In this document: positions 1-11,504 of the stretch, piece after piece
How the letters are laid out: every line of letters begins with the position of its first letter
How positions within the stretch are numbered: the first letter of the stretch is position 1
IMG/VR virus record: IMGVR_UViG_3300045988_106194
Source: a virus
Strand: one strand, 5' to 3'
Length of the DNA: 11,504 bases
Notes under the pieces: model-generated
What the model was told of the DNA's origin: nothing
Databases searched by the model: none
What the model saw: the letters and a program-made list of their open reading frames with translations, nothing else
Made by a program: the position numbers and the translations under genes

Positions 1-40
1 AAAGGTACGCTACCCACCCCCTGCCACGTTCCCCCAACGG

Positions 41-70
41 CTTTTAACATAGTTTAACACAGTTTAACAC
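41..70. repeat. Three tandem 10-bp repeats (CTTTTAACAT AGTTTAACAC AGTTTAACAC), one per helical turn, 41-70 nt from the terminus
   Basis: Read directly from the sequence. Period is exactly 10 bp and the core GTT-T-AAC is palindromic. Mirrored at 11435-11464. Confidence 0.9.
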
Positions 71-141
71 GTGGGTACTGGGTCGCCACTCTACACGGCT
101 GGCACTGGCTTGCACGGCTGGGGCGGTGTTCGTGGTGTTAA

Positions 142-157
142 TGTTCCACGTGGAACA
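142..157. repeat. 16-bp perfect palindrome TGTTCCACGTGGAACA (operator-like site)
   Basis: Self-complementary over all 16 nt with a CACGTG core. The outer arms TGTT/AACA are the same as in the recurring TGTTTAACA element. Mirrored at 11348-11363. Confidence 0.9.
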
Positions 158-195
158 CTTGCCCTGTAACTCGCTGATTTTCAACGGCTTGCACG

Positions 196-239
196 AATTT
201 ACAAATGTAAATTTACAAATGTGAATAAATTTACAAAAC
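196..239. repeat. Tandem AATTTACAAA(TGT) repeats, three copies (196-208, 210-222, 227-239)
   Basis: Read directly: AATTTACAAATGT, AATTTACAAATGT, then AAATTTACAAAAC. On the opposite strand they contain TAnnTTTG-like boxes (TACATTTG at 209-202, TAGTTTTG at 241-234). Mirrored at 11266-11309. Confidence 0.85.
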
Positions 240-342
240 TAAACTGGTGCTGTTGGTTGCTGAAAATTTTTGCAGAAACTTTCACGTGGTTGCACGTTGG
301 TTGTTAAAAATTCTAAAAATGAAAATTTTTTCTCGCTTATGT

Positions 343-373
343 GTTGTTATGTCGAAAATTGTTTGTATCTTTG
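343..373 (+). promoter_or_regulatory. Candidate inward-facing promoter in the left ITR (TATCTTTG box at 366-373, GTTG 19 nt upstream)
   Basis: TATCTTTG fits the Bacteroidota -7 consensus TAnnTTTG. The identical octamer followed by GC also lies upstream of the capsid gene (4660-4653, minus strand). It sits 48 nt upstream of the ATG at 421. Motif match only. Confidence 0.4.
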
Positions 374-420
374 CACCGTGTTTGATACACAATGAATGTT
401 TAACAAATAATATATGTAAT

Positions 421-753
421 ATGGAACAGCAAAAAAATGTTGAACGGTTTAGGCTTGAAATGATAGTTAAAGCCGTTGAAGATGTAACAAGCGACTTTGA
501 CATTTCAGACGCTTTAAGCGACTATTTAGATTTGTTGCGTGACTTTTCGGGGTGTATTGAAAACATACAACATGACTGTTTTTTAACAGAGGGTGAACTA
601 CCCGAAAACGTGTTGGAAGAGTTGAAAGAACGTTACAACACAAACCGCCTTATTGAGTTGGTTTGGAACACTTCACACGTTGAAAGGGTATGCAAGGCAC
701 TGGAAACGGTGGCTAAACAAGTAAAGTATTTAAAAGATAGTATCAACAAATAA
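421..753 (+). CDS. Hypothetical small acidic protein (110 aa), first gene downstream of the left ITR promoter
   Basis: First ATG outside the ITR in the 247-753 ORF (MEQQKNVERF...), TAA stop. About 23 Asp/Glu versus about 14 Lys/Arg by my count. No transmembrane segment and no motif I recognise. Confidence 0.6.
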   Translation: MEQQKNVERFRLEMIVKAVEDVTSDFDISDALSDYLDLLRDFSGCIENIQHDCFLTEGELPENVLEELKERYNTNRLIELVWNTSHVERVCKALETVAKQVKYLKDSINK

Positions 754-765
754 CACGTGTTAATT

Positions 766-1128
766 ATGGGTATTGAAAAAGTTATCGAGAGTTACCGCAA
801 ACCGCTGGAACTCATCAAAGAGGGTATCGGCAATATAGATACCGAAAGTGAACATGGTAAAAGTTTCATTGCAGAGGCTCAAAAGGTGTTAGGCACACTT
901 ATTGAAAACCTGCCAAACGTGCAAAAGATGTACGAAGACTTGCACGAAAAGTTTGAGGTTGAAAAGGACTGCAAGAACGACGCTTATTTCTTCATTCTTG
1001 AAAGTGGCAATTTTTACAAGTACAAGCAATGGCACTTCAACGAAAAGAAAGGCGACTTGCAAAGCACACTTGAAAAGTTTTGGGCTAACAACTTGAAAGC
1101 CCCCAAAGAGAAAAAGGGTAAAAAGTAA
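766..1128 (+). CDS. Hypothetical protein (120 aa) with a lysine-rich C-terminal tail (KAPKEKKGKK)
   Basis: ATG at 766 (MGIEKVIESY...), 13 nt after the upstream stop. The track's 757 start is a GTG. TAA stop, followed by a strong terminator. No recognisable motif. Confidence 0.6.
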   Translation: MGIEKVIESYRKPLELIKEGIGNIDTESEHGKSFIAEAQKVLGTLIENLPNVQKMYEDLHEKFEVEKDCKNDAYFFILESGNFYKYKQWHFNEKKGDLQSTLEKFWANNLKAPKEKKGKK

Positions 1129-1151: not shown

Positions 1152-1186
1152 CGGGGTACTGCTTTAATTAGTAGTACCCCGTTTTT
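1152..1186 (+). terminator. Rho-independent terminator closing the rightward two-gene unit
   Basis: CGGGGTACT (1152-1160) pairs with AGTACCCCG (1173-1181). The stem extends through G1161-T1172, C1162-G1171 and T1163-A1170 to about 12 bp, and is followed by TTTTT (1182-1186). The U-tract exists only on the plus strand. Confidence 0.8.
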
Positions 1187-4588: not shown

Positions 4589-4614
4589 GTTGTAAAATTT
4601 TTATTGTTAAACAA

Positions 4615-5181
4615 TTATTCGTATATATCCAGTGTTATTTCGCTTACAAGGGCAAAGATAATTTTTTCCTGCCACTTGTTACGCCTTAACTCCATTTCTT
4701 TAACCACGTTTTCCGATACGTTGCCCGTTGTCCCCTGTTGTTCTGTGGTACTGGTAACGGTTTCGGTGCGTGTCTTGTTCTGCTCGCTGGTGTCCCGTTC
4801 CCCGTCCGTGAACATATCATCGTTAAACGCCTTTTCTGCGTTTGTGGTGTTGTCCGTTCCCTGCTCGCTGGTGTCCCTGTTTTCGGTCTTCGTTACCTTT
4901 GCCGTGGTCGGTGTTACTGCGTTGTACTCGGTTGTCATCGCTTCCGCCTGTTTCAGCCAGTCGCCAACACGCATTGAAATGATACCACGCAAAACGGGTG
5001 CTGCCGTTGTCGCTGTCAGTCCCTCGGACAAAGTACGGTTGCCGTACTTAAACGCTGCCACTGCGTCCAGTTCTTCGGGTGGTGTACGGGCAAAAATTGT
5101 TCGGTACTCGTCCTCGAAATCGGGGTAAAAGTATTTTGCGAAAAGCCCGTTACCCTCTGTAAACAGTTCCTTGTACTTCAT
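4615..5181 (-). CDS. Hypothetical structural protein (188 aa) with a Thr/Ser/Glu/Asn-rich central region; scaffolding or head-tail adaptor candidate
   Basis: Lies between portal and capsid genes, the usual scaffold position. Its start overlaps the portal stop (ATGA). It contains an internal in-frame duplication (RDTSEQ twice). No recognisable motif. Confidence 0.55.
   Translation of the reverse strand: MKYKELFTEGNGLFAKYFYPDFEDEYRTIFARTPPEELDAVAAFKYGNRTLSEGLTATTAAPVLRGIISMRVGDWLKQAEAMTTEYNAVTPTTAKVTKTENRDTSEQGTDNTTNAEKAFNDDMFTDGERDTSEQNKTRTETVTSTTEQQGTTGNVSENVVKEMELRRNKWQEKIIFALVSEITLDIYE
4653..4660 (-). promoter_or_regulatory. Candidate late promoter -7 box (TATCTTTG) inside the 3' end of the 188-aa gene, 65 nt upstream of the capsid ATG
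   Basis: The reverse complement of 4653-4660 is TATCTTTG followed by C, the same box as in the ITRs. It is followed about 35 nt later by TTGTTTAACAAT, the same box-then-element order as in the ITR. No convincing -33 element. Confidence 0.3.
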
Positions 5182-6137
5182 TTCTTGCCCCCTTTCTTTT
5201 TACGCTGTTCCTCGGTGTCCTCATCGGTGGGGTCGTTTTCCCGTTCTTCCTCGGTTGTTACTTCCACGCCTGTAACCAAACTTTCGTAGTTTTCATGCTC
5301 CAAATACCAAGAACTACCCAAACGCACGGATATTTCAGTACCGAACATTTCGTTTACCTGTTTCAGTGCCTTTTGTCTTTCATGTAGCATATTATCCACA
5401 TACGGCAAAAGTACGTCAACATTCATAGCAACCTCGCCCGTGTTCAGTCGTTCACGCTTCATGTTGTAGTTGGCATTTAGTCCCAACTCGTTCAACATAT
5501 TAGCCTTGTAATACTGCACAAGTTCCACAAGTTGCGTTATATACTGGGTGTTGCTGGTGGCTGTTGTCTGCATATTAACGCCCTTAAAAAAGGCGTTTTC
5601 CCCGATAACGGAAAAGTCCCCGTCCAGTATCTTTTTTAAGAACTCGTCTGCACTTTGCTTTGTCTTGTCATCGCTGGCACTTATCAGCATAGTAATACGG
5701 GTTAAAATGCTGGCTGTGTTCAGTGATATAACACCGTCCGTATATAACACGGCAAATTTTCCTATAAGTGGCAAAAGGCTGTTGCCGTTGGTGTCGTTCT
5801 TGATAAAGACACCGTCCACGCCTATTTTATAGGACTTATTCAGTTTTAACGCTGGGTTCGCTACCGTGTAAATTGTCGGTCTGTTGTACGGGTCGGGTTC
5901 TCCACCTGCTGCACCCTGTAAGGCGTACAAGTCCCCGTTTACCTCTGCAAAAAAGGCGTTGCCCTCTGTCTGCAAAAGCCTTTCCAGTTCCTCGGCTGGC
6001 ACGGTGTCGGGTAAGCCCTCATATACAAGCATCGCCTGCGTTTTCGCCAACGTGTTTTCAATGAAAGACATTACCGCCATGTCCTTATTTTTAACGTAGG
6101 ACTGGAAACGCTGGTATATGTTTTCTTTTTTCTTCAT
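5178..6137 (-). CDS. Portal (head-tail connector) protein, phi29 gp10-like (about 319 aa from the ATG at 6137)
   Basis: [27 protein letters not shown] parallels gp10 [45 protein letters not shown] parallels [45 protein letters not shown] parallels [33 protein letters not shown]. The track start at 6164 is a TTG inside the promoter-like box, so I prefer [11 protein letters not shown] at 6137. TGA stop. Confidence 0.85.
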   Translation of the reverse strand: [319 protein letters not shown]

Positions 6138-6154
6138 ACGCACGTATATATAAA

Positions 6155-6177
6155 TTTTCTGCAAAAATACAAATTTA
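6155..6177 (-). promoter_or_regulatory. Candidate promoter for the structural genes in the ATPase-portal intergenic region
   Basis: The minus strand reads TAAATTTG TATTTTTG CAGAAAA, two adjacent TAnnTTTG boxes (6177-6170 and 6169-6162). The 12-mer TTTTTGCAGAAA is identical to 267-278 of the ITR. An alternative sigma70-like reading is TTGTAT, 16 nt, TATATA. The 85-nt gap is the largest non-terminal intergenic region inside the leftward array. Confidence 0.45.
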
Positions 6178-6222
6178 TTTTGTTAAAAGTGTACCGTTTG
6201 CAGAAAAATTTTCGTTTTAACC

Positions 6223-7364: not shown

Positions 7365-9572
7365 TTAATCTTTGAATTTGATACCACGTAAATAATTAAG
7401 ATAGATAACGGACAAACTAAGGCTGTACCCTGTCGGTTCAAGGTGTACCCCCGATTTTTCGTTATAGTCGCACTCGTTGCCTAAATAGTCAAATATGCTT
7501 CCAGTTATGCCGTAATCTATATAAGTGTGAATGTTTTTGCCTGTTGCTTTCGGGGGCAAATCAAGGTAGTTTGTAAATGCGTCAAATATGCCGTTTTGCC
7601 CGTACTTCTCCATAAGGTAGGGAATAGCACATTTTTTGTTTACGCCCGAAACGGTCAAAGATACGGGGTAACTTTTGCCCCCTGTCTTCAATGCGTTTTC
7701 CTGCTCTACCATGTAGCGTTTTGCCCCCAGTGTCTTAAAACGGGTGTAACGCCCCTCATAGTCCCAAACGCCTAACAACTTCTTTACGCCTTTTATTGTT
7801 TTCGGCTGGCACATCTCAAAGGGTATGCCGTGGAACTTGCACGCCTTGCGTAACTTCTGTTCTGCCTGTTTGTTGTAGGTGTCGAAATACGCTTTGTGCT
7901 GGTCGCCCTGCATTAACTTTATACTGTCGGTGTCGCTATATATGTAATCGTCTTTCGCTTCATATATTCCCGTGAATAGGTTACGCCTTGCGTATGCCGT
8001 TACAAAGATACCCCACGGATAAAACAAAAAACGGTTCTTGCTGGAATTGTAGGTATATAGCAAGTTACTTTGCTGTTCGGGTGTCATGTGTTCGGTGTCC
8101 CAGTCCCCGTTATATACGAACTCATCACGGAGGGGGTTTGTTACACACATACCGTAACAACTGTTTAGCATTTCCTTACTGTTCAAATACTCTACTTCCA
8201 TACCGTCCACGCCCTTTAAGGTGGTTTTCTTTTCGTATAGGTGTAATATAGCCTTTACAAACTCGGTCGGCAAATATCCACGCTTGTAACAGTACATCGT
8301 ACCCACACGCATACTTTCCCAGTGGTAAAAGTTCTTTATTATGTGAAAGTCAATATCTGTTATTGTGAGGGCTATTTGTTTGGCTGCTGCCACACGTCCG
8401 TTATTTTCTACCACGTTCTGTTTTATAAAACACTTGCTGGCACTTATCGGGTTGTCCTGTGTTTCGCTGGTGAATATGTTGTTAAACTCAATATCGAAGA
8501 CACAACAGTATTTCGATATAAGAAACTCAAATTGTTTCATACTCTTTACCTGTATGCAAACGCCCTTACTCATCGGGTATTGTTCGGCTACCATTACATA
8601 AGGGTAACTGCTGGTAAAGTCGTAACTATCCACTTCGGGGGTTATCTCATCGGTGTAAATTGCGTTTGCGTGTGTGAAACCGCCTGCAAAGGCACGTTGC
8701 AACATTCTGAACTCATCTAAACCCGTTATTTGTAGTTCCTGCATTAAATTAACGTAGTCCCAGTTTGGCACGGTCTTTCCCTCTTCGTTCTTTGTGCGCA
8801 AACAGTGCTTTCGGCAATACTTGCGTACAAACCCCGTCTTCGTCAAAGGTAGGTTGCAAATGTGCTTCACTTCTTCGATACGTTCCTGTATGTAACACAT
8901 CACTACTTTTATATCATTGATACAGTAACCTATTTCGGCATTTGTAAGGGGTGTTTGTCGGTGTCTTAATAGTGAGTAATCAAGGTCGCCCGTTTTCTTC
9001 TCACACTTGTATTTAACCAACTGTTCCCCAAGTTTAGCCAGTGAGTAACCCGATAAAAGGTAACTACACCGAAACTCTATAAAACGGCTGGTAATAGCGT
9101 AAATAGGTTTTCGCAAATCAATGCTGAAAACCTTTGCCCAGTCAAACCAATTTCGTATAAACTGGAACTCATACGAAAGGTTATGCACGTAGCATATTAA
9201 CCGCCTTTTCTCACCCAGTTGTAGGGTGTCGGCTATCACTTCGCACATTTCCGTAAATTCGTCCCACGTCCTGCCAACTATCACACGCCCGTTAATACCA
9301 AACTGCCAAACGTACATTATAGCCGCCTTTTCCAGTTTTATTTTACGTTTCTGCATAAGCCTTTGCGCCTGTTCGTAGTCGTATGCCGTCCCGTCCTCAT
9401 CACGGTAAAAACTGGTTGTTTCAATGTCAAAGGAACACGGCACATTATAAAAGTGTTCCCCCTTGCTGTTGCCTGTCAAATTCTTTTCATTAACGGATAA
9501 CTCTAAAACGGTGGCTATGTCAGTCGGTTTGTATATTCGGGTATCTTTTTCATTAAACGGTATTTTCTTCAT
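7365..9572 (-). CDS. Protein-primed family B DNA polymerase (735 aa)
   Basis: Exonuclease motifs are ExoI SFDIETTS, ExoII HNLSYEFQF and ExoIII YCINDIKVV. Polymerase motifs are A DFTSSYPYV, B KEMLNSCYG, C YSDTDSIK and KxY LGAKRYM. All are in canonical order and resemble phi29 DNA polymerase motifs. ITR-bounded genome context. Confidence 0.95.
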   Translation of the reverse strand: MKKIPFNEKDTRIYKPTDIATVLELSVNEKNLTGNSKGEHFYNVPCSFDIETTSFYRDEDGTAYDYEQAQRLMQKRKIKLEKAAIMYVWQFGINGRVIVGRTWDEFTEMCEVIADTLQLGEKRRLICYVHNLSYEFQFIRNWFDWAKVFSIDLRKPIYAITSRFIEFRCSYLLSGYSLAKLGEQLVKYKCEKKTGDLDYSLLRHRQTPLTNAEIGYCINDIKVVMCYIQERIEEVKHICNLPLTKTGFVRKYCRKHCLRTKNEEGKTVPNWDYVNLMQELQITGLDEFRMLQRAFAGGFTHANAIYTDEITPEVDSYDFTSSYPYVMVAEQYPMSKGVCIQVKSMKQFEFLISKYCCVFDIEFNNIFTSETQDNPISASKCFIKQNVVENNGRVAAAKQIALTITDIDFHIIKNFYHWESMRVGTMYCYKRGYLPTEFVKAILHLYEKKTTLKGVDGMEVEYLNSKEMLNSCYGMCVTNPLRDEFVYNGDWDTEHMTPEQQSNLLYTYNSSKNRFLFYPWGIFVTAYARRNLFTGIYEAKDDYIYSDTDSIKLMQGDQHKAYFDTYNKQAEQKLRKACKFHGIPFEMCQPKTIKGVKKLLGVWDYEGRYTRFKTLGAKRYMVEQENALKTGGKSYPVSLTVSGVNKKCAIPYLMEKYGQNGIFDAFTNYLDLPPKATGKNIHTYIDYGITGSIFDYLGNECDYNEKSGVHLEPTGYSLSLSVIYLNYLRGIKFKD

Positions 9573-9576
9573 ATAC

Positions 9577-10221
9577 TTACATACTGAATTTGTCGAAATC
9601 GTCCATTATCTTTTTAACGTCCTTTTCCATAAGTTCCACCGCGTTCCAATGGTCGTCCGCTGCCTGCTCTAACTGGTTATCCAGTACGTTTGCAAGGCTT
9701 TGGGCTTCGCTCTCTATTTGGTCGCTAAGGCTTCGGGCTTCTGTTTCCAGTTCCCCCGTAAAGTCTTTGTAACGCATTAGGTAGCGTTCTACAAAATTAG
9801 TGTCATCTATGCTTTGTAACTTCTTTTGTAGGTTCTTTGCCATTAGGTCGAACTCATCGGGTTTAAGGTCGTAGGACTGCATTAAATGCGTGTTGTACTG
9901 TCTTACACCTGTTGCCGTACTGGTAGGCTGTCGCAAAAACGAAATTGCCTTTGTGTACTCCATTTTTAGGGTGTTCCAGTCGCCACGCATAGAGAATTTT
10001 GTGTAACTCTCAACATCGCCCTTTTGCAGTGCTGCAACCGCTGGACTTATTAACCCTGCGTGTTCTATGTTCTGAATACGCCTGTTTGCCCGTTGGAATA
10101 CCTTTGCAATCTCGCTTCGTGCTGCTGGACTGCTTTCCAACTGGTCTAATATCCACTTTTGTAGGGGTTGTTTAGTACTGCGAAAAACGCCCCTTGTAAA
10201 TGCTATTTTACCGCCTTTCAT
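9577..10221 (-). CDS. Terminal protein candidate (214 aa)
   Basis: Lies immediately upstream of the polymerase (4-nt spacer), as gene 3 precedes gene 2 in phi29. It has a basic N-terminal part and an acidic helical C-terminal part. FSMRGDWNTLKMEYTKAISFLRQ loosely parallels phi29 terminal protein FETRAQFNKWKEQASSFTNR. The assignment rests mainly on synteny. Confidence 0.45.
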   Translation of the reverse strand: MKGGKIAFTRGVFRSTKQPLQKWILDQLESSPAARSEIAKVFQRANRRIQNIEHAGLISPAVAALQKGDVESYTKFSMRGDWNTLKMEYTKAISFLRQPTSTATGVRQYNTHLMQSYDLKPDEFDLMAKNLQKKLQSIDDTNFVERYLMRYKDFTGELETEARSLSDQIESEAQSLANVLDNQLEQAADDHWNAVELMEKDVKKIMDDFDKFSM

Positions 10222-10296: not shown

Positions 10297-10659
10297 TTAC
10301 AAGTCCACAAACGAAACATTGTAACACTTCTTTCCGTGGCTCTCATACTCGTAGATAGTGTAACCTACTTTGCCGTTTTTAATCGCTTCAACGGCTTCAC
10401 TGTCTGCCAGTATTTCACAGGCTGTTTCTGCCATGTGTGAAGGTAGGTTTACTAACTTCTTCGCTTCTGCGTCAATGATAACGGGGCTATCGCCTAAACC
10501 GTTCTTGCTGGCATGTACGAAAATGCCGTTAATCGGGTGTACTACATCGTTGCCCCCGTTGTCCTTACTGTTGAAAATGTCTGCCAACTTGATATACTCA
10601 AAGTTGCTGGTGTCGATACCGAAACCGACTTTGTTAAACTTACTTGCAAATGTTGCCAT
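10297..10659 (-). CDS. Hypothetical early protein (120 aa); candidate abundant DNA-binding protein (SSB or dsDNA-binding)
   Basis: Occupies the position of phi29 genes 5/6, upstream of the terminal protein and polymerase genes. Its 5' leader is nearly identical to that of the capsid gene, and its own terminator follows. No motif I can name. Confidence 0.55.
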   Translation of the reverse strand: MATFASKFNKVGFGIDTSNFEYIKLADIFNSKDNGGNDVVHPINGIFVHASKNGLGDSPVIIDAEAKKLVNLPSHMAETACEILADSEAVEAIKNGKVGYTIYEYESHGKKCYNVSFVDL

Positions 10660-10670
10660 AGTTGTAAACT

Positions 10671-10690
10671 TTATTTGTTAAACATTCATT
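10671..10690 (-). promoter_or_regulatory. Internal copy of the ITR-boundary element AATGAATGTTTAACAAATAA, 11 nt upstream of the 120-aa gene ATG
   Basis: The reverse complement of 10671-10690 is identical over 20 nt to 391-410 at the left ITR junction. It overlaps the last codons (SMNV stop) of the 64-aa ORF. Confidence 0.7.
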
Positions 10691-10872
10691 GAATTGTCTT
10701 TCTGTTCGGTGGCTGTGAACTCTAAAAGCCACTTTTTGAAACGGTTTATCTTCATAACCGCTTTGTCATTCTTGCATACCTCGTTTGTAGTAATAAGGTG
10801 GTTCAGTGCAGCCAGTACCTCAAAACTGTACTCGTCAAACGGGTTGCGTACTTCGTTGTTATTCTCTGCCAT
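10678..10872 (-). CDS. Hypothetical small early protein (64 aa)
   Basis: ATG start 18 nt after the upstream stop, TAA stop, co-directional and tightly packed. No transmembrane segment or recognisable motif. Confidence 0.5.
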   Translation of the reverse strand: MAENNNEVRNPFDEYSFEVLAALNHLITTNEVCKNDKAVMKINRFKKWLLEFTATEQKDNSMNV

Positions 10873-10890: not shown

Positions 10891-11109
10891 TTAATCAATG
10901 TTCGTTACTGCGTTCAGCGCGTGAATTATTTGCCCCGTGTACGGGTCAAAATGCACCGTTTCGCAAAACGCCTTTACATACTCGGCTTTGTAGCGTACCA
11001 ACGTCAAAGTAATTTCACGTTGTGCGTTGTAGTCCTTTGGAACTACCTGTTTACCATTCAAGTAATAAACGTGTTCATTGTTCATATACCATAACTTTTT
11101 GTTAAACAT
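10891..11109 (-). CDS. Hypothetical small early protein (72 aa; alternative start at 11085 giving MNNEHVYY...)
   Basis: First ORF downstream of the right ITR promoter. Its first four codons (ATG TTT AAC AAA) lie inside the ITR. TAA stop. No recognisable motif. Confidence 0.5.
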   Translation of the reverse strand: MFNKKLWYMNNEHVYYLNGKQVVPKDYNAQREITLTLVRYKAEYVKAFCETVHFDPYTGQIIHALNAVTNID

Positions 11110-11504
11110 TCATTGTGTATCAAACACGGTGCAAAGATACAAACAATTTTCGACATAACAACACATAAGCGAGAAAAAATTTTCATTTTTAGAATTTTTA
11201 ACAACCAACGTGCAACCACGTGAAAGTTTCTGCAAAAATTTTCAGCAACCAACAGCACCAGTTTAGTTTTGTAAATTTATTCACATTTGTAAATTTACAT
11301 TTGTAAATTCGTGCAAGCCGTTGAAAATCAGCGAGTTACAGGGCAAGTGTTCCACGTGGAACATTAACACCACGAACACCGCCCCAGCCGTGCAAGCCAG
11401 TGCCAGCCGTGTAGAGTGGCGACCCAGTACCCACGTGTTAAACTGTGTTAAACTATGTTAAAAGCCGTTGGGGGAACGTGGCAGGGGGTGGGTAGCGTAC
11501 CTTT
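11098..11504. repeat. Right inverted terminal repeat (407 bp)
   Basis: Exact reverse complement of 1-407 by manual comparison. It carries mirrored copies of the 10-bp repeats (11435-11464), the palindrome (11348-11363) and the AATTTACAAA repeats (11266-11309). Confidence 0.93.
11132..11139 (-). promoter_or_regulatory. Right-ITR copy of the inward-facing TATCTTTG promoter box
   Basis: Mirror image of 366-373. It lies 23 nt upstream of the ATG at 11109. Confidence 0.4.

What the first reader, a model, noticed from the sequence alone, without database searches (positions are those of the whole stretch)
1..407. Long ITR built from distinct repeat modules, unlike the 6-bp ITR of phi29
The outer part of the ITR (about 1-195) is visibly more GC-rich. 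It holds C5 runs (17-21, 31-35), three 10-bp phased repeats (41-70), the duplicated decamer GGCTTGCACG (107-116 and 186-195), CACGGCTGG twice (94-102, 112-120), CAACGGCTT twice (35-43, 182-190) and a 16-bp palindrome. The inner part (about 196-407) is AT-rich, with AATTTACAAA repeats, GAAAATTTT repeats and promoter-like boxes. This much ordered repetition in non-coding DNA suggests several protein-binding arrays (origin nucleoprotein complex, transcription control) rather than a simple terminal duplication. About 7 percent of a very small genome is devoted to it.
Basis: seen in the sequence. Interest (0 to 1): 0.7.

Follow-up and report, generated by a model that had tools for sequence, protein, structure and literature searches.

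The report
Modular terminal repeat of gut phage
The 407-bp inverted repeat at each end of this tiny gut phage genome is real and conserved, and it most likely combines the origin of protein-primed replication, arrays of short protein-binding motifs and an inward-facing promoter; this is a repeat-rich version of a design already known from a few other small phages.

Summary
Window 1-407 and 11098-11504 are perfect inverted copies, and every listed repeat is present (one is off by 1 nt). Repeat content is far above chance.

Position 1 is the physical DNA end: sequencing adapters are fused directly to AAAGGTACGC in five independent relatives.

About 170 related gut contigs, probably phages of Prevotella or other Bacteroidota, show the modules are constrained. 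Motif blocks are 96-99% identical, against 81.5% at synonymous sites and 71-76% in spacers.

Three zones emerge:
- Terminus-anchored: an invariant 13-mer, CCCAACG at 33, TTTAAC at 43 and CACG at 68.
- Expandable middle: repeat units whose number and type vary.
- Promoter-anchored: a CACGTGG site always 83-84 nt upstream of a Bacteroidota-type -7 box (TATCTTTG, 366-373), then the 5' leader.

In most relatives the ITR stops at the palindrome (219-277 bp). Here the two ends are identical through the promoter and leader. In relative L013 the identity reaches 8 codons into both terminal genes.

The 120-aa protein looks like an SSB, not a site-specific binder. A packaging-RNA reading is rejected.

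Long ITRs carrying a promoter are known (Mycoplasma phage P1, Cp-1). The dense, rigidly spaced repeats are the new element. No protein binding has been shown.

The parts
1..407 (+). Left copy of the inverted terminal repeat
   Evidence: 100% complementary to 11098-11504; position 1 is the physical end
11098..11504 (-). Right copy of the ITR (a feature at left position p lies at 11505-p)
1..13 (+). Terminal box AAAGGTACGCTAC: putative core origin, with a 3-base terminal reiteration (AAA)
   Evidence: Invariant in both clades apart from two single-genome substitutions: G5A in L084 and C13T in L029. TruSeq adapter is fused directly to AAAGG in L039, L058, L060, L065 and L102
13..39 (+). C-tracts (13-21, 31-35) and the CCCAACG box (33-39)
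   Evidence: CCCAAC is at position 33 in both clades. C-runs near the tip also occur in Phanie, DU_PP_III and Entb_47
41..70 (+). Three 10-bp phased units, each holding TTTAACA (43, 53, 63)
   Evidence: The TTTAAC at 43/44 is in the same register in both clades. Invariant within the window clade
68..74 (+). CACGTGG: the CACG half of the first bipartite unit (TTTAAC at 43 plus CACG at +25)
   Evidence: Same register as TTTAAC(44)/GGCACG(67) in the 77% clade
88..121 (+). Variable repeat module: CACGGCTGG x2 (94, 113) and GGCTTGCACG (107)
   Evidence: Replaced by three TTTAAC-type units in L013 and L092 and expanded to a 22-bp tandem x3 in L105
142..157 (.). Palindrome 1, TGTTCCACGTGGAACA (putative dimer-binding operator)
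   Evidence: Conserved in the window clade; the same motif occurs twice, 42 bp apart, in the 77% clade
179..195 (+). TTTCAACGGCTTGCACG, last GC-rich repeat unit and end of the GC-rich zone
   Evidence: D1/D8
196..243 (+). AATTTACAAATGT x3, with the 12-bp palindrome TGTAAATTTACA at 205-216; lineage-specific module
   Evidence: D2. Absent from the 77% clade. One unit fewer in L013 and rearranged in L092
280..296 (+). Site 2, TTTCACGTGGTTGCACG: the promoter-anchored CACGTGG site
   Evidence: Aligns with the second palindrome of the 77% clade. The distance to the -7 box is 83-84 nt in the six genomes where both motifs were found exactly. Degenerate in some close relatives
301..335 (+). Conserved A/T-rich upstream block GTTAAAAATTCTAAAAATGAAAATTTTTTCTCGC
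   Evidence: ~80% identical across the 77% clade and 99% within it. A paralogous block lies upstream of the portal gene
344..373 (+). Putative early promoter: -33-like TTG (344-346), 19 nt, -7 box TATCTTTG (366-373), pointing inward
   Evidence: Matches the Bacteroidota consensus TAnnTTTG (PMC7366714). Invariant in relatives. Present at both ends
374..420 (+). 5' leader of the left transcription unit; the ITR ends at 407, 14 nt before ATG 421
   Evidence: The leader motif CAATGAATGTTTAACAAATAA lies at 390-410
10671..10691 (-). Third exact copy of the 21-nt leader motif, between R64 and the SSB gene
   Evidence: I3. Conserved in L011, L012, L013 and L015. Related leaders precede the SSB, capsid and portal genes
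421..1128 (+). Left transcription unit (110-aa and 123-aa proteins of unknown function), driven by the left ITR promoter
1152..1181 (+). Strong hairpin terminator (12-bp stem plus T-run) between the two convergent units
10891..11109 (-). R72 gene, absent from L013 and from L102, L103, L104 and L106; its presence sets the inner ITR boundary at 407
10678..10872 (-). R64: the only small early protein besides the SSB conserved in both clades; two-helix hairpin; positional candidate for a DNA-binding factor
10297..10659 (-). 120-aa protein, probable SSB (phi29 p5 analogue)
   Evidence: AF2 pLDDT 76. Foldseek hit to the SSB of Staphylococcus phage JBug18: E 1e-8, TM 0.72
9577..10221 (-). 214-aa protein, putative terminal protein (by synteny only)
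   Evidence: Immediately upstream of PolB. Homologous to the protein at the same position in astrithr and Phanie. No hit to solved TPs
7365..9572 (-). Family-B protein-primed-type DNA polymerase
   Evidence: Pfam DNA_pol_B_2, E 6.5e-12. 43-46% identical to Astrithrvirus-like phages
6153..6222 (-). Internal paralogue of the terminal promoter (GGTTAAAACGAAAATTTTTCTGC, 30 nt, TATTTTTGCAG) upstream of the portal gene
   Evidence: Equivalent TA(TC/CC)TTTGCAA boxes occur in the 77% clade

Best explanation
The ITR is a composite control cassette present at both ends of a protein-primed linear phage genome. It has three zones. (1) Terminus-anchored origin, about 1-75. This holds the invariant AAAGGTACGCTAC, whose AAA reiteration fits initiation at an internal template T followed by sliding back, as in phi29. 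It also holds C-tracts, CCCAACG and the first TTTAAC/CACG unit. The TP-polymerase complex would start replication here. (2) Expandable middle, about 75-280. This holds short repeats (TTTAACA, CACG-core units, the CACGTGG palindrome and, in this lineage, TGTAAATTTACA). They most likely bind one or more sequence-specific proteins that build a nucleoprotein complex helping to open the end and/or regulate the promoter. (3) Promoter-anchored zone, 280-407. This holds a CACGTGG site at a fixed 83-84 nt upstream of a Bacteroidota sigma-A-type -7 box, an A/T-rich upstream block, and the 5' leader. It fires inward at both ends, so both terminal transcription units start from an identical promoter. The ITR is 407 bp because sequence homogenisation between the two ends (plausibly panhandle or strand-switch repair, as in adenovirus) runs inward until the first end-specific sequence, the R72 gene. 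SHOWN: the repeat, the true end, the enrichment, the conservation and the spacing. INFERRED: replication start, promoter activity, protein binding, the identity of the binders and the homogenisation mechanism.
For: Physical end: adapter fused to AAAGGTACGC in L039, L058, L060, L065 and L102. Protein-primed machinery: DNA_pol_B_2 polymerase, Gp16 ATPase and phi29 connector, an SSB-like fold and a conserved protein in the TP position. Constraint: among the aligned 77%-clade polymerase-side ends, motif blocks are 0.96-0.99 identical and spacers 0.71-0.76 (17 ends), against 0.815 at PolB 4-fold sites in 14 of those genomes. Rigid geometry: the TTTAAC to GGCAYG offset is exactly 23 nt in 222 cases over 150 distinct ends, with 71 distinct units. 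CCCAAC at 33 and TTTAAC at 43/44 are in register across clades. The palindrome-to--7-box distance is 83-84 nt in the six genomes measured, while its distance to the terminus ranges from 208 to 304. Promoter: TATCTTTG fits the Bacteroidota -7 consensus. It is invariant in relatives and a diverged copy (TACATTTG) sits in the same layout at the other end. A paralogous block with the same spacing lies upstream of the portal gene. Host fit: SD-like motifs precede 2 of 13 genes here against 8 of 11 in Salmonella phage astrithr, and a 77%-clade contig was binned in a Prevotella MAG. Variable ITR boundary: 219-277 bp ending at the palindrome in most relatives, 349 in L047, 407 here, and 465 in L013, where it reaches codon 8 of both terminal genes. 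Precedents: DU_PP_III's ITR ends right after TTGACG-17-TAGAAT, and Mycoplasma phage P1's 350-bp ITR has an annotated promoter in each copy.
Against: No experiment: no transcription start site, no binding data, no replication assay. No candidate binder has a recognisable DNA-binding fold. R64 is only a helix hairpin with no PDB match, and the small proteins have no informative Pfam, PHROG or NCBIfam hits. The middle modules are replaced or vary in copy number between genomes ~95% identical (L013, L092, L105). Site 2 is degenerate in some close relatives (CACGGGG, CAAGGTG), so not every module is essential. Cultured Astrithrvirus-like phages manage with repeat-poor ITRs. TTTAACA also occurs in gene leaders, so it may not be origin-specific. 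The -33 element is only TTG.
Confidence: 0.68

Rival explanations
1. The repeats are transcriptional elements only. The origin is just the terminal 10-40 bp, and everything from about 40 to 300 is operator or upstream-element DNA for a regulator of the two identical terminal promoters, with no role in replication.
For: The promoter-proximal CACGTGG site is anchored to the -7 box (83-84 nt) and not to the terminus. In L016 a TTTCACGTGGAAC sequence lies next to the internal promoter rather than in the ITR. The phi29 minimal origin is only ~12 bp (my own knowledge). Cultured relatives replicate with repeat-poor ITRs.
Against: The first TTTAAC/CACG unit and CCCAACG keep a fixed distance to the terminus across clades. 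The arrays lie 150-320 nt upstream of the promoter, which is far for bacterial operators. The repeat arrays lie inside the ITR in every relative whose ends were recovered, even where the promoter lies outside it.
Confidence: 0.2
2. Apart from the terminal box and the promoter, the repeats are neutral by-products of slippage, duplication and end-to-end gene conversion, with no binding function.
For: Copy number and even the type of middle module differ between near-identical genomes (48-bp unit present or absent; L013, L092, L105). The AATTTACAAA module is lineage-specific.
Against: Motif cores are conserved well above the synonymous-site rate while the spacers between them are not. The 23-nt half-site offset is exact in 222 instances despite 71 different spacer sequences. 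The CACGTGG enrichment is specific to the ITR.
Confidence: 0.1
3. The GC-rich outer part encodes a structured RNA transcribed outward, analogous to phi29 packaging RNA. TACATTTG and TAGTTTTG boxes on the outward strand at 202-209 and 234-241 would be its promoter.
For: Outward-facing TAnnTTTG matches exist just inside the GC-rich zone. The phage has a phi29-type Gp16 ATPase and connector but no identified pRNA.
Against: No Rfam hit anywhere in the genome. Folding of 1-200 is no better than shuffles on either strand (z = +0.5 and +1.0). RNAalifold across 12 relatives gives -7.8 and -5.2 kcal/mol with a positive covariation term and 0-1 compensatory pairs. The outward boxes lie in a lineage-specific module absent from the 77% clade. 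Whole repeat units come and go.
Confidence: 0.03
4. The long ITR is an assembly artefact (a chimeric or fold-back contig).
For: Metagenome assemblers can create inverted ends. At least one relative (L067) has a suspicious 119-bp inverted end that lacks the AAAGGTACGC terminus shared by the other contigs.
Against: Dozens of independent assemblies from different samples recover the same terminus and layout. Adapters mark the same physical end. Cultured relatives have ITRs of 60-219 bp.
Confidence: 0.02

Closest known systems
Mycoplasma phage P1 (Delislevirus P1, NC_002515)
   Same: Protein-primed-type podophage of almost the same size (11,660 bp). It has a long ITR (350 bp) with an annotated promoter inside each copy firing inward, and the ITR ends at the first gene.
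   Different: It appeared in none of the searches made with this genome (no nucleotide match), though the P1 ITR itself was never aligned to the window's. Its ITR is not repeat-rich: 5 repeated 9-mers, reached by 40 of 500 shuffles, and no direct-repeat families. Host and promoter type differ.
Astrithrvirus-like phages of Gram-negative bacteria (Salmonella astrithr/Astrid, Pectobacterium DU_PP_III, Acinetobacter Phanie, Enterobacter Entb_47)
   Same: Closest cultured relatives: PolB 43-46% identical, the same gene order and an 11-12 kb genome. ITRs are 84-219 bp, with C-runs near the tip. DU_PP_III's ITR ends right after a sigma-70-like promoter.
   Different: No nucleotide similarity. Their ITRs are shorter and carry almost no internal repeats (0-1 repeated 9-mers). 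They have sigma-70 promoters and SD sites rather than Bacteroidota signals.
phi29 replication origins with the p6 nucleoprotein complex
   Same: The terminus starts AAAG..., with a 3-A reiteration. There is a TP-primed family-B polymerase, an SSB gene and TP-Pol synteny. The idea of a multimeric protein-DNA complex near the end that both helps initiation and controls early promoters is shared (phi29 details from my own knowledge and PMC4974454, title and abstract only).
   Different: The phi29 ITR is 6 bp (PMC11476376). p6 recognises bendability rather than sequence repeats. No p6 homologue was found here, and no pRNA.
Streptococcus phage Cp-1 (NC_001825)
   Same: Protein-primed podophage with a 236-bp ITR that overlaps annotated promoter boxes at its inner edge.
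   Different: Its ITR repeat content is at chance level (2 repeated 9-mers, reached by 232 of 500 shuffles). Gram-positive host, 19 kb genome.
Adenovirus ITR (core origin plus auxiliary factor sites)
   Same: Works similarly: a conserved terminal core for the pTP-Pol complex, followed by separate sequence-specific factor sites within a ~100-165 bp ITR. The ends are kept identical by panhandle repair (my own knowledge).
   Different: Eukaryotic virus with host transcription factors as auxiliaries. This is an analogy only, with no homology of the ITR sequences.

Membership tests
ITR of a protein-primed (terminal-protein-linked) linear dsDNA phage genome | Inverted repeat located at the physical ends of a linear genome | tested here: met
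   407-nt perfect arms. Adapters are fused to position 1 in relatives of both clades.
ITR of a protein-primed (terminal-protein-linked) linear dsDNA phage genome | Genome encodes a protein-primed-type family-B DNA polymerase | tested here: met
   Pfam DNA_pol_B_2, E 6.5e-12, above the curated cut-off. Homologous to the polymerases of Astrithrvirus-like, Clostridium and Bacillus phi29-like phages.
ITR of a protein-primed (terminal-protein-linked) linear dsDNA phage genome | [quoted passage not shown] | not testable with these tools
   Only a syntenic candidate exists: the 214-aa protein upstream of PolB, conserved in astrithr and Phanie. It has no similarity to solved TPs.
ITR of a protein-primed (terminal-protein-linked) linear dsDNA phage genome | Reiterated terminal bases that allow sliding-back or jumping-back | tested here: met
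   5'-AAA at both ends, conserved in relatives. The mechanism itself was not tested.
Genus Astrithrvirus | Substantial nucleotide identity to Astrithrvirus astrithr across the genome (the usual ICTV genus criterion is about 70%; my own knowledge) | tested here: not met
   Megablast of the whole genome against 50,697 phage records gives no match. PolB is only 45% identical at the amino-acid level. It is related above genus level only.
Bacteroidota primary-sigma (sigma-ABfr) promoter | -7 motif TAnnTTTG | tested here: met
   TATCTTTG at 366-373 and 11132-11139. Invariant in relatives. Consensus as given in PMC7366714.
Bacteroidota primary-sigma (sigma-ABfr) promoter | -33 motif TTTG at suitable spacing | tested here: inconclusive
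   Only TTG (344-346), 19 nt upstream of the -7 box; GCTTG in the 77% clade. The -33 motif is itself weakly defined.
Bacteroidota primary-sigma (sigma-ABfr) promoter | Mapped transcription start downstream of the -7 box | not testable with these tools
   No transcript data available.
phi29-type packaging RNA (pRNA, Rfam RF00044 as I recall the accession) | Match to the covariance model, or a conserved structured RNA near a genome end | tested here: not met
   No Rfam match at E up to 5. No thermodynamic signal. No covariation.
Iteron-type origin repeats (multiple phased sites for an initiator protein) | Several copies of a conserved site at regular spacing next to the replication start | tested here: met
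   TTTAACA x3 at 10-bp phase. Bipartite TTTAAC-N-GGCAYG units at an exact 23-nt offset, 2-4 per ITR in relatives.
Iteron-type origin repeats (multiple phased sites for an initiator protein) | A cognate initiator or binding protein that recognises the repeats | not testable with these tools
   No candidate has a recognisable DNA-binding fold. R64 is a helix hairpin and the 120-aa protein is SSB-like.

The most novel reading that the evidence does not exclude
The rigidly spaced TTTAACA-N16-(G)GCACG units and the CACGTGG palindromes form a previously undescribed, sequence-specific auxiliary origin and operator system for protein-primed replication in Bacteroidota phages. A clade-specific factor (R64 or the TP-polymerase complex) would bind it and couple initiation at both ends to symmetric early transcription. 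The whole origin-operator-promoter-leader cassette, reaching the start codon in some genomes, would evolve in concert, so that unrelated terminal genes acquire identical 5' ends.
Probability: 0.3. Interest if true: 0.6.

Novelty: new variant of a known kind. Interest (0 to 1): 0.45.

Why it matters
Protein-primed replication has been worked out almost entirely in phi29, PRD1, Cp-1 and adenovirus. Nothing comparable is known for the abundant small podophages of gut Bacteroidota. This clade offers a natural mutagenesis series, with hundreds of genomes, that already delimits candidate functional elements to a few nucleotides: a 13-nt terminal box, bipartite repeat units with a fixed 23-nt offset, palindromic sites tied to the promoter, and a Bacteroidota-type promoter duplicated at both ends. 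That makes binding and replication experiments directly designable. It also gives compact, portable promoter and origin parts for Bacteroidota or Prevotella genetics. The finding that ITR length simply tracks how far the ends are homogenised, in one genome into the coding sequence of two unrelated genes, is a clear illustration of concerted evolution of linear-genome ends. It is also a practical warning for annotating such genomes: the shared N-termini are real and are not mis-assemblies.

Tried and rejected
1. Packaging-RNA or structured-RNA reading of the GC-rich outer part: rejected. Rfam found nothing, fold z-scores were +0.5 and +1.0, and there was no covariation.

2. The 120-aa protein as the ITR binder: its predicted fold matches podophage SSBs instead.

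3. R64 as a recognisable DNA-binding fold: the model is a plain helix hairpin with no Foldseek PDB hit and no PDB profile hit. It remains only a positional candidate.

4. Pfam, PHROG and NCBIfam scans of the small terminal proteins: nothing above the cut-offs.

5. The 214-aa protein against solved structures, looking for the phi29 TP: no meaningful hit.

6. Exact search for the terminal 28-mer in IMG/VR: zero hits, because relatives differ by a few bases or lack the first 3 nt.

7. Sigma-70 promoter scan: the best hit, TTGATA-18-AATAAT at 382-411, straddles the ITR boundary and lies in the leader, which is poorly conserved among relatives. The Bacteroidota -7 box is preferred.

8. Coding potential inside the ITR: long stop-free stretches occur in the terminal 260 nt of every relative examined, but at different strands and offsets. 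No protein comparison or start-codon check was made, so this is weak evidence against a conserved ITR gene.

9. A variable-gap pattern search for -33/-7 failed on tool syntax and was not repeated.

10. Literature: the phi29-like review (PMC11476376) and the Dutch-cohort ITR paper (PMC9610469) do not describe ITR architecture for this group.
Full report
**1. What the window is.**
The 11,504-bp window is a complete linear phage genome. Its ends are perfect 407-nt inverted copies, 1-407 and 11098-11504.

- It encodes a protein-primed-type family-B polymerase (Pfam DNA_pol_B_2), a phi29-type Gp16 packaging ATPase, a phi29-type connector and a phi29-like capsid protein.
- All genes except two run on the minus strand from the right end.
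- Two small genes (421-1128) run inward from the left end. A strong hairpin terminator at 1152-1181 separates the convergent units.
- The closest cultured relatives are the 11-12 kb Astrithrvirus-like podophages of Gram-negative bacteria. PolB is 43-46% identical at the amino-acid level and there is no nucleotide match.

**2.
The one exception is the second CACGGCTGG, which lies at 113-121 rather than 112-120.

- The outer 200 nt have GC 0.53-0.56 and the next 250 nt 0.27-0.35.
- The ITR holds 18 repeated 9-mers against 1.3 expected; none of 1000 dinucleotide shuffles reaches 18. Equal-sized windows of the unique genome average 1.9, maximum 9.
- CACGTGG occurs 9 times in the genome, 8 of them in the ITR copies, with 1.9 expected.
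- TTTAACA occurs 17 times against 7.1 expected.

**3. Position 1 is the true DNA end.**
IMG/VR holds 152 relatives. The 80 fetched comprise five with 96-99% PolB identity, one with 78% and the rest with ~77%. Twenty more contigs of the window's own lineage came from ENA and Logan assemblies.

Many contigs start with AAAGGTACGCTAC. In L039, L058, L060, L065 and L102 the Illumina TruSeq adapter end (...CTCTTCCGATCT) is fused directly to AAAGGTACGC. That happens only if the base is a physical end. Nextera transposon ends are fused about 10 nt further in, in several other contigs (L062, L066, L083, L086). An assembly artefact is therefore excluded.

One caveat remains. The 100% identity of the arms in short-read assemblies may partly reflect repeat collapse.

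**4. The modules are conserved, with three kinds of anchoring.**
Polymerase-side ends were aligned for 17 genomes of the 77% clade.

- Near-invariant blocks (0.96-0.99 pairwise identity): the terminal 19 nt, TGGCACG..TTTTTG, both CACGTGGAACAC palindromes and the promoter block. Every TTTAAC core is column-invariant.
- Spacers between them: 0.71-0.76.
- Neutral yardstick from 14 of those genomes (4-fold degenerate sites in PolB): 0.815.

So the motifs are under purifying selection and the spacers are not.

Between clades the sequence has largely turned over, but the layout persists:

- (a) Terminus-anchored. AAAGGTACGCTAC at 1-13, CCCAAC at 33, TTTAAC at 43/44 and a CACG core at 68/69.
- (b) Expandable middle. 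In the 77% clade this is 2-4 bipartite units, TTTAACA-N16-TGGCACGnTTTTTG. The TTTAAC-to-GGCAYG offset is exactly 23 nt in 222 instances over 150 distinct ends, with 71 different unit sequences. Presence or absence of one 48-bp unit explains the 219 versus 267 bp ITRs.
- (c) Promoter-anchored. The promoter-proximal CACGTGG site lies 83-84 nt upstream of the -7 box in the six genomes where both motifs were found exactly. Its distance from the terminus ranges from 208 to 304.

In the window's lineage the middle instead holds three tandem TTTAACA units, CACGGCTGG/GGCTTGCACG repeats and a lineage-specific AATTTACAAATGT x3 module. Among genomes ~95% identical these are swapped or expanded:

- L013 and L092 replace the GC-rich repeats with three more TTTAAC units.
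- L105 has a 22-bp tandem triplication.
- L013 lacks one AATTTACAAA unit.

**5. The inner AT-rich part is a promoter plus leader.**
Window 296-382 is homologous to sequence that, in most 77%-clade genomes, lies just inside the ITR at the polymerase end only. It contains, in order:

- an A/T-rich block (GTTAAAA...GAAAATTTTTTCTCGC);
- TTG;
- 19 nt;
- TATCTTTG, followed by GCAC.

TATCTTTG fits the Bacteroidota primary-sigma -7 consensus TAnnTTTG (PMC7366714).

In the 77% clade the other end has the same layout in diverged sequence, with TACATTTGCA. A paralogous block with the same internal spacing (GAAAATTTTTCTGC, 30 nt, TATTTTTGCAG) lies in the gap upstream of the portal gene. Equivalent TA(TC/CC)TTTGCAA boxes occur there in relatives.

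Three observations fit a Bacteroidota host:

- SD-like motifs precede only 2 of 13 genes here, against 8 of 11 in Salmonella phage astrithr.
- A 77%-clade contig was binned into a Prevotella MAG.
- A published review predicts a Bacteroidales host for a related faecal phage (PMC11476376).

Promoter activity itself is inferred, not shown.

**6. Why the ITR is 407 bp.**
Measured from the true end, ITRs in the 77% clade are 219-277 bp. They stop right after the second palindrome, with the promoter about 70 bp further in.

- In L047 identity extends to 349, just past the -7 box.
- In the window it extends to 407, 14 nt short of ATG 421.
- In L013 it extends to 465 in the contig (468 from the true end). 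There it covers the start codon and the first 8 codons, so the R64 homologue and the left-end protein both begin MEQTKNIE.
- In L102-type genomes the polymerase-side leader and first six codons (MEQQKN) equal the window's left-end leader.
- The window's boundary at 407 coincides with the R72 gene, which is absent from L013 and from L102, L103, L104 and L106.

ITR length therefore records how far inward the two ends have been homogenised before end-specific sequence begins. The mechanism (panhandle or strand-switch repair) is inferred by analogy with adenovirus.

**7. Who binds?**
It is probably the p5 analogue.

Across both clades, the only conserved early genes upstream of PolB are R64, this SSB and the 214-aa protein. 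The 214-aa protein is the TP candidate by synteny only.

R64 is a two-helix hairpin with a basic second helix (VMKINRFKKW). It has no structural or family match. It is a candidate by position and conservation only. Host factors cannot be excluded.

**8. Rivals.**

- A pRNA-like RNA in the GC-rich part is rejected.
- A purely neutral origin of the repeats conflicts with the conservation and the rigid spacing. It may still apply to individual middle modules.
- A purely transcriptional role for all the arrays remains possible. It is weakened by the terminus-anchored register of the first unit.

**9. Comparison with what is known.**
Long ITRs that include an inward promoter are established.

- Mycoplasma phage P1 (11,660 bp) has a 350-bp ITR with an annotated promoter in each copy, ending at orf1.
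- Cp-1 has a 236-bp ITR overlapping promoter boxes.
- DU_PP_III's 219-bp ITR ends right after TTGACG-17-TAGAAT.

What differs here is the density and regularity of internal repeats. Repeated 9-mers number 17-30 in this gut clade, and 0 of 500 shuffles reach that. The counts are 5 in P1, 2 in Cp-1 and 0-1 in the cultured Astrithrvirus-like phages, none of them significant.

The papers I found do not describe ITR architecture for this group.

**10. Verdict.**
The feature is real, conserved and functionally structured. It is best filed as a repeat-rich new variant of the known design 'origin plus promoter in the ITR' of protein-primed phages, in an uncultured Bacteroidota-associated clade. Interest is moderate. 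The design principle is not new, but the comparative data define precise, testable elements.

Noticed in passing
window 390-410, 10671-10691 (-), 4597-4619 (-), 6168-6187 (-), 11095-11108 (-): A leader motif, TGTTTAACAA(A/T)AA..., recurs 14-25 nt upstream of the start codons of the left-end gene, R72, the SSB, the capsid gene and the portal gene. The copy before the SSB gene is a 21-nt exact repeat of the ITR's inner end. In the 77% clade, R64 and the SSB have near-identical leaders (GTTTAACAATTAAAAG.TTACTACA-ATG). It could be a Bacteroidota-style translation initiation region, an internal promoter element, or a site for the same factor that binds the ITR TTTAACA array.
   Followed up: partly
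L013 441-465 at both ends; L102, L103, L104 and L106 polymerase-side ends: In L013 the ITR includes the start codon and 8 codons, so two unrelated terminal proteins share the N-terminus MEQTKNIE. L102-type genomes have MEQQKN at the polymerase end, identical to the window's left-end gene.
   Followed up: yes
window 10891-11109 (-): The 72-aa gene next to the right ITR has no homologue in the 77% clade or in L013, but is present in many close relatives (L092, L098-L101). It is a presence/absence cassette inserted between the leader and R64.
   Followed up: partly
window 6153-6222 (-): An internal paralogue of the terminal promoter lies upstream of the portal gene (GGTTAAAACGAAAATTTTTCTGC, 30 nt, TATTTTTGCAG). 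TAnnTTTG is enriched genome-wide (27 against 14.3 expected), mostly on the coding strand.
   Followed up: partly
L039, L058, L060, L065, L102 (TruSeq); L062, L066, L075, L083, L086 (Nextera); first 10-50 nt of the contigs: Public viral contigs retain untrimmed sequencing adapter at their ends. This is useful here as a marker of the physical end, but it is contamination in the databases.
   Followed up: yes
L027 1-23 at both ends; L035 distal end 1-44; L023 1-48; L076 1-48: Some contigs carry extra non-adapter sequence outside the AAAGGTACGC terminus, and it is identical at both ends in L027 and L023. The origin is unknown: assembly chimera, fold-back junction or a real variant end.
   Followed up: no
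L084 position 5 and about 95-98: The only relative with G5A in the terminal box (AAAGATAC) also has TTACC changed to TTATC about 90 nt inside, the reverse complement of the changed tetramer. This is a single event, possibly an internal inverted copy of the terminal sequence recognised by the same protein.
   Followed up: no
window 5178-6164 (-), C-terminal part; 3' ends of L012, L028, L032, L082, L085: The portal protein varies from 343 to 406 aa among close relatives, and many ~6-kb contigs break in a tandem acidic repeat (GTTTCCTCTGTTTCTTCG...) that, by position, probably lies in the portal C-terminal region. This looks like a hypervariable repeat that also fragments assemblies; the placement in the portal gene was not mapped.
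   Followed up: no
whole window: There is no match to phi29 pRNA or any other Rfam family, although the phage has a phi29-type Gp16 ATPase and connector. Whether these phages use a packaging RNA at all is open.
   Followed up: partly
L016 about 4950-5034: In L016, which has no CACGTGG in its ITR, a TTTCACGTGGAAC sequence followed by a hairpin terminator lies just upstream of the internal TAAATTTGCA promoter. This hints that the palindrome-binding factor acts on promoters.
   Followed up: no
L067 both ends, 1-119: The 119-bp inverted end lacks the AAAGGTACGC terminus shared by the other contigs. This is probably an assembly chimera and not a true ITR.
   Followed up: no
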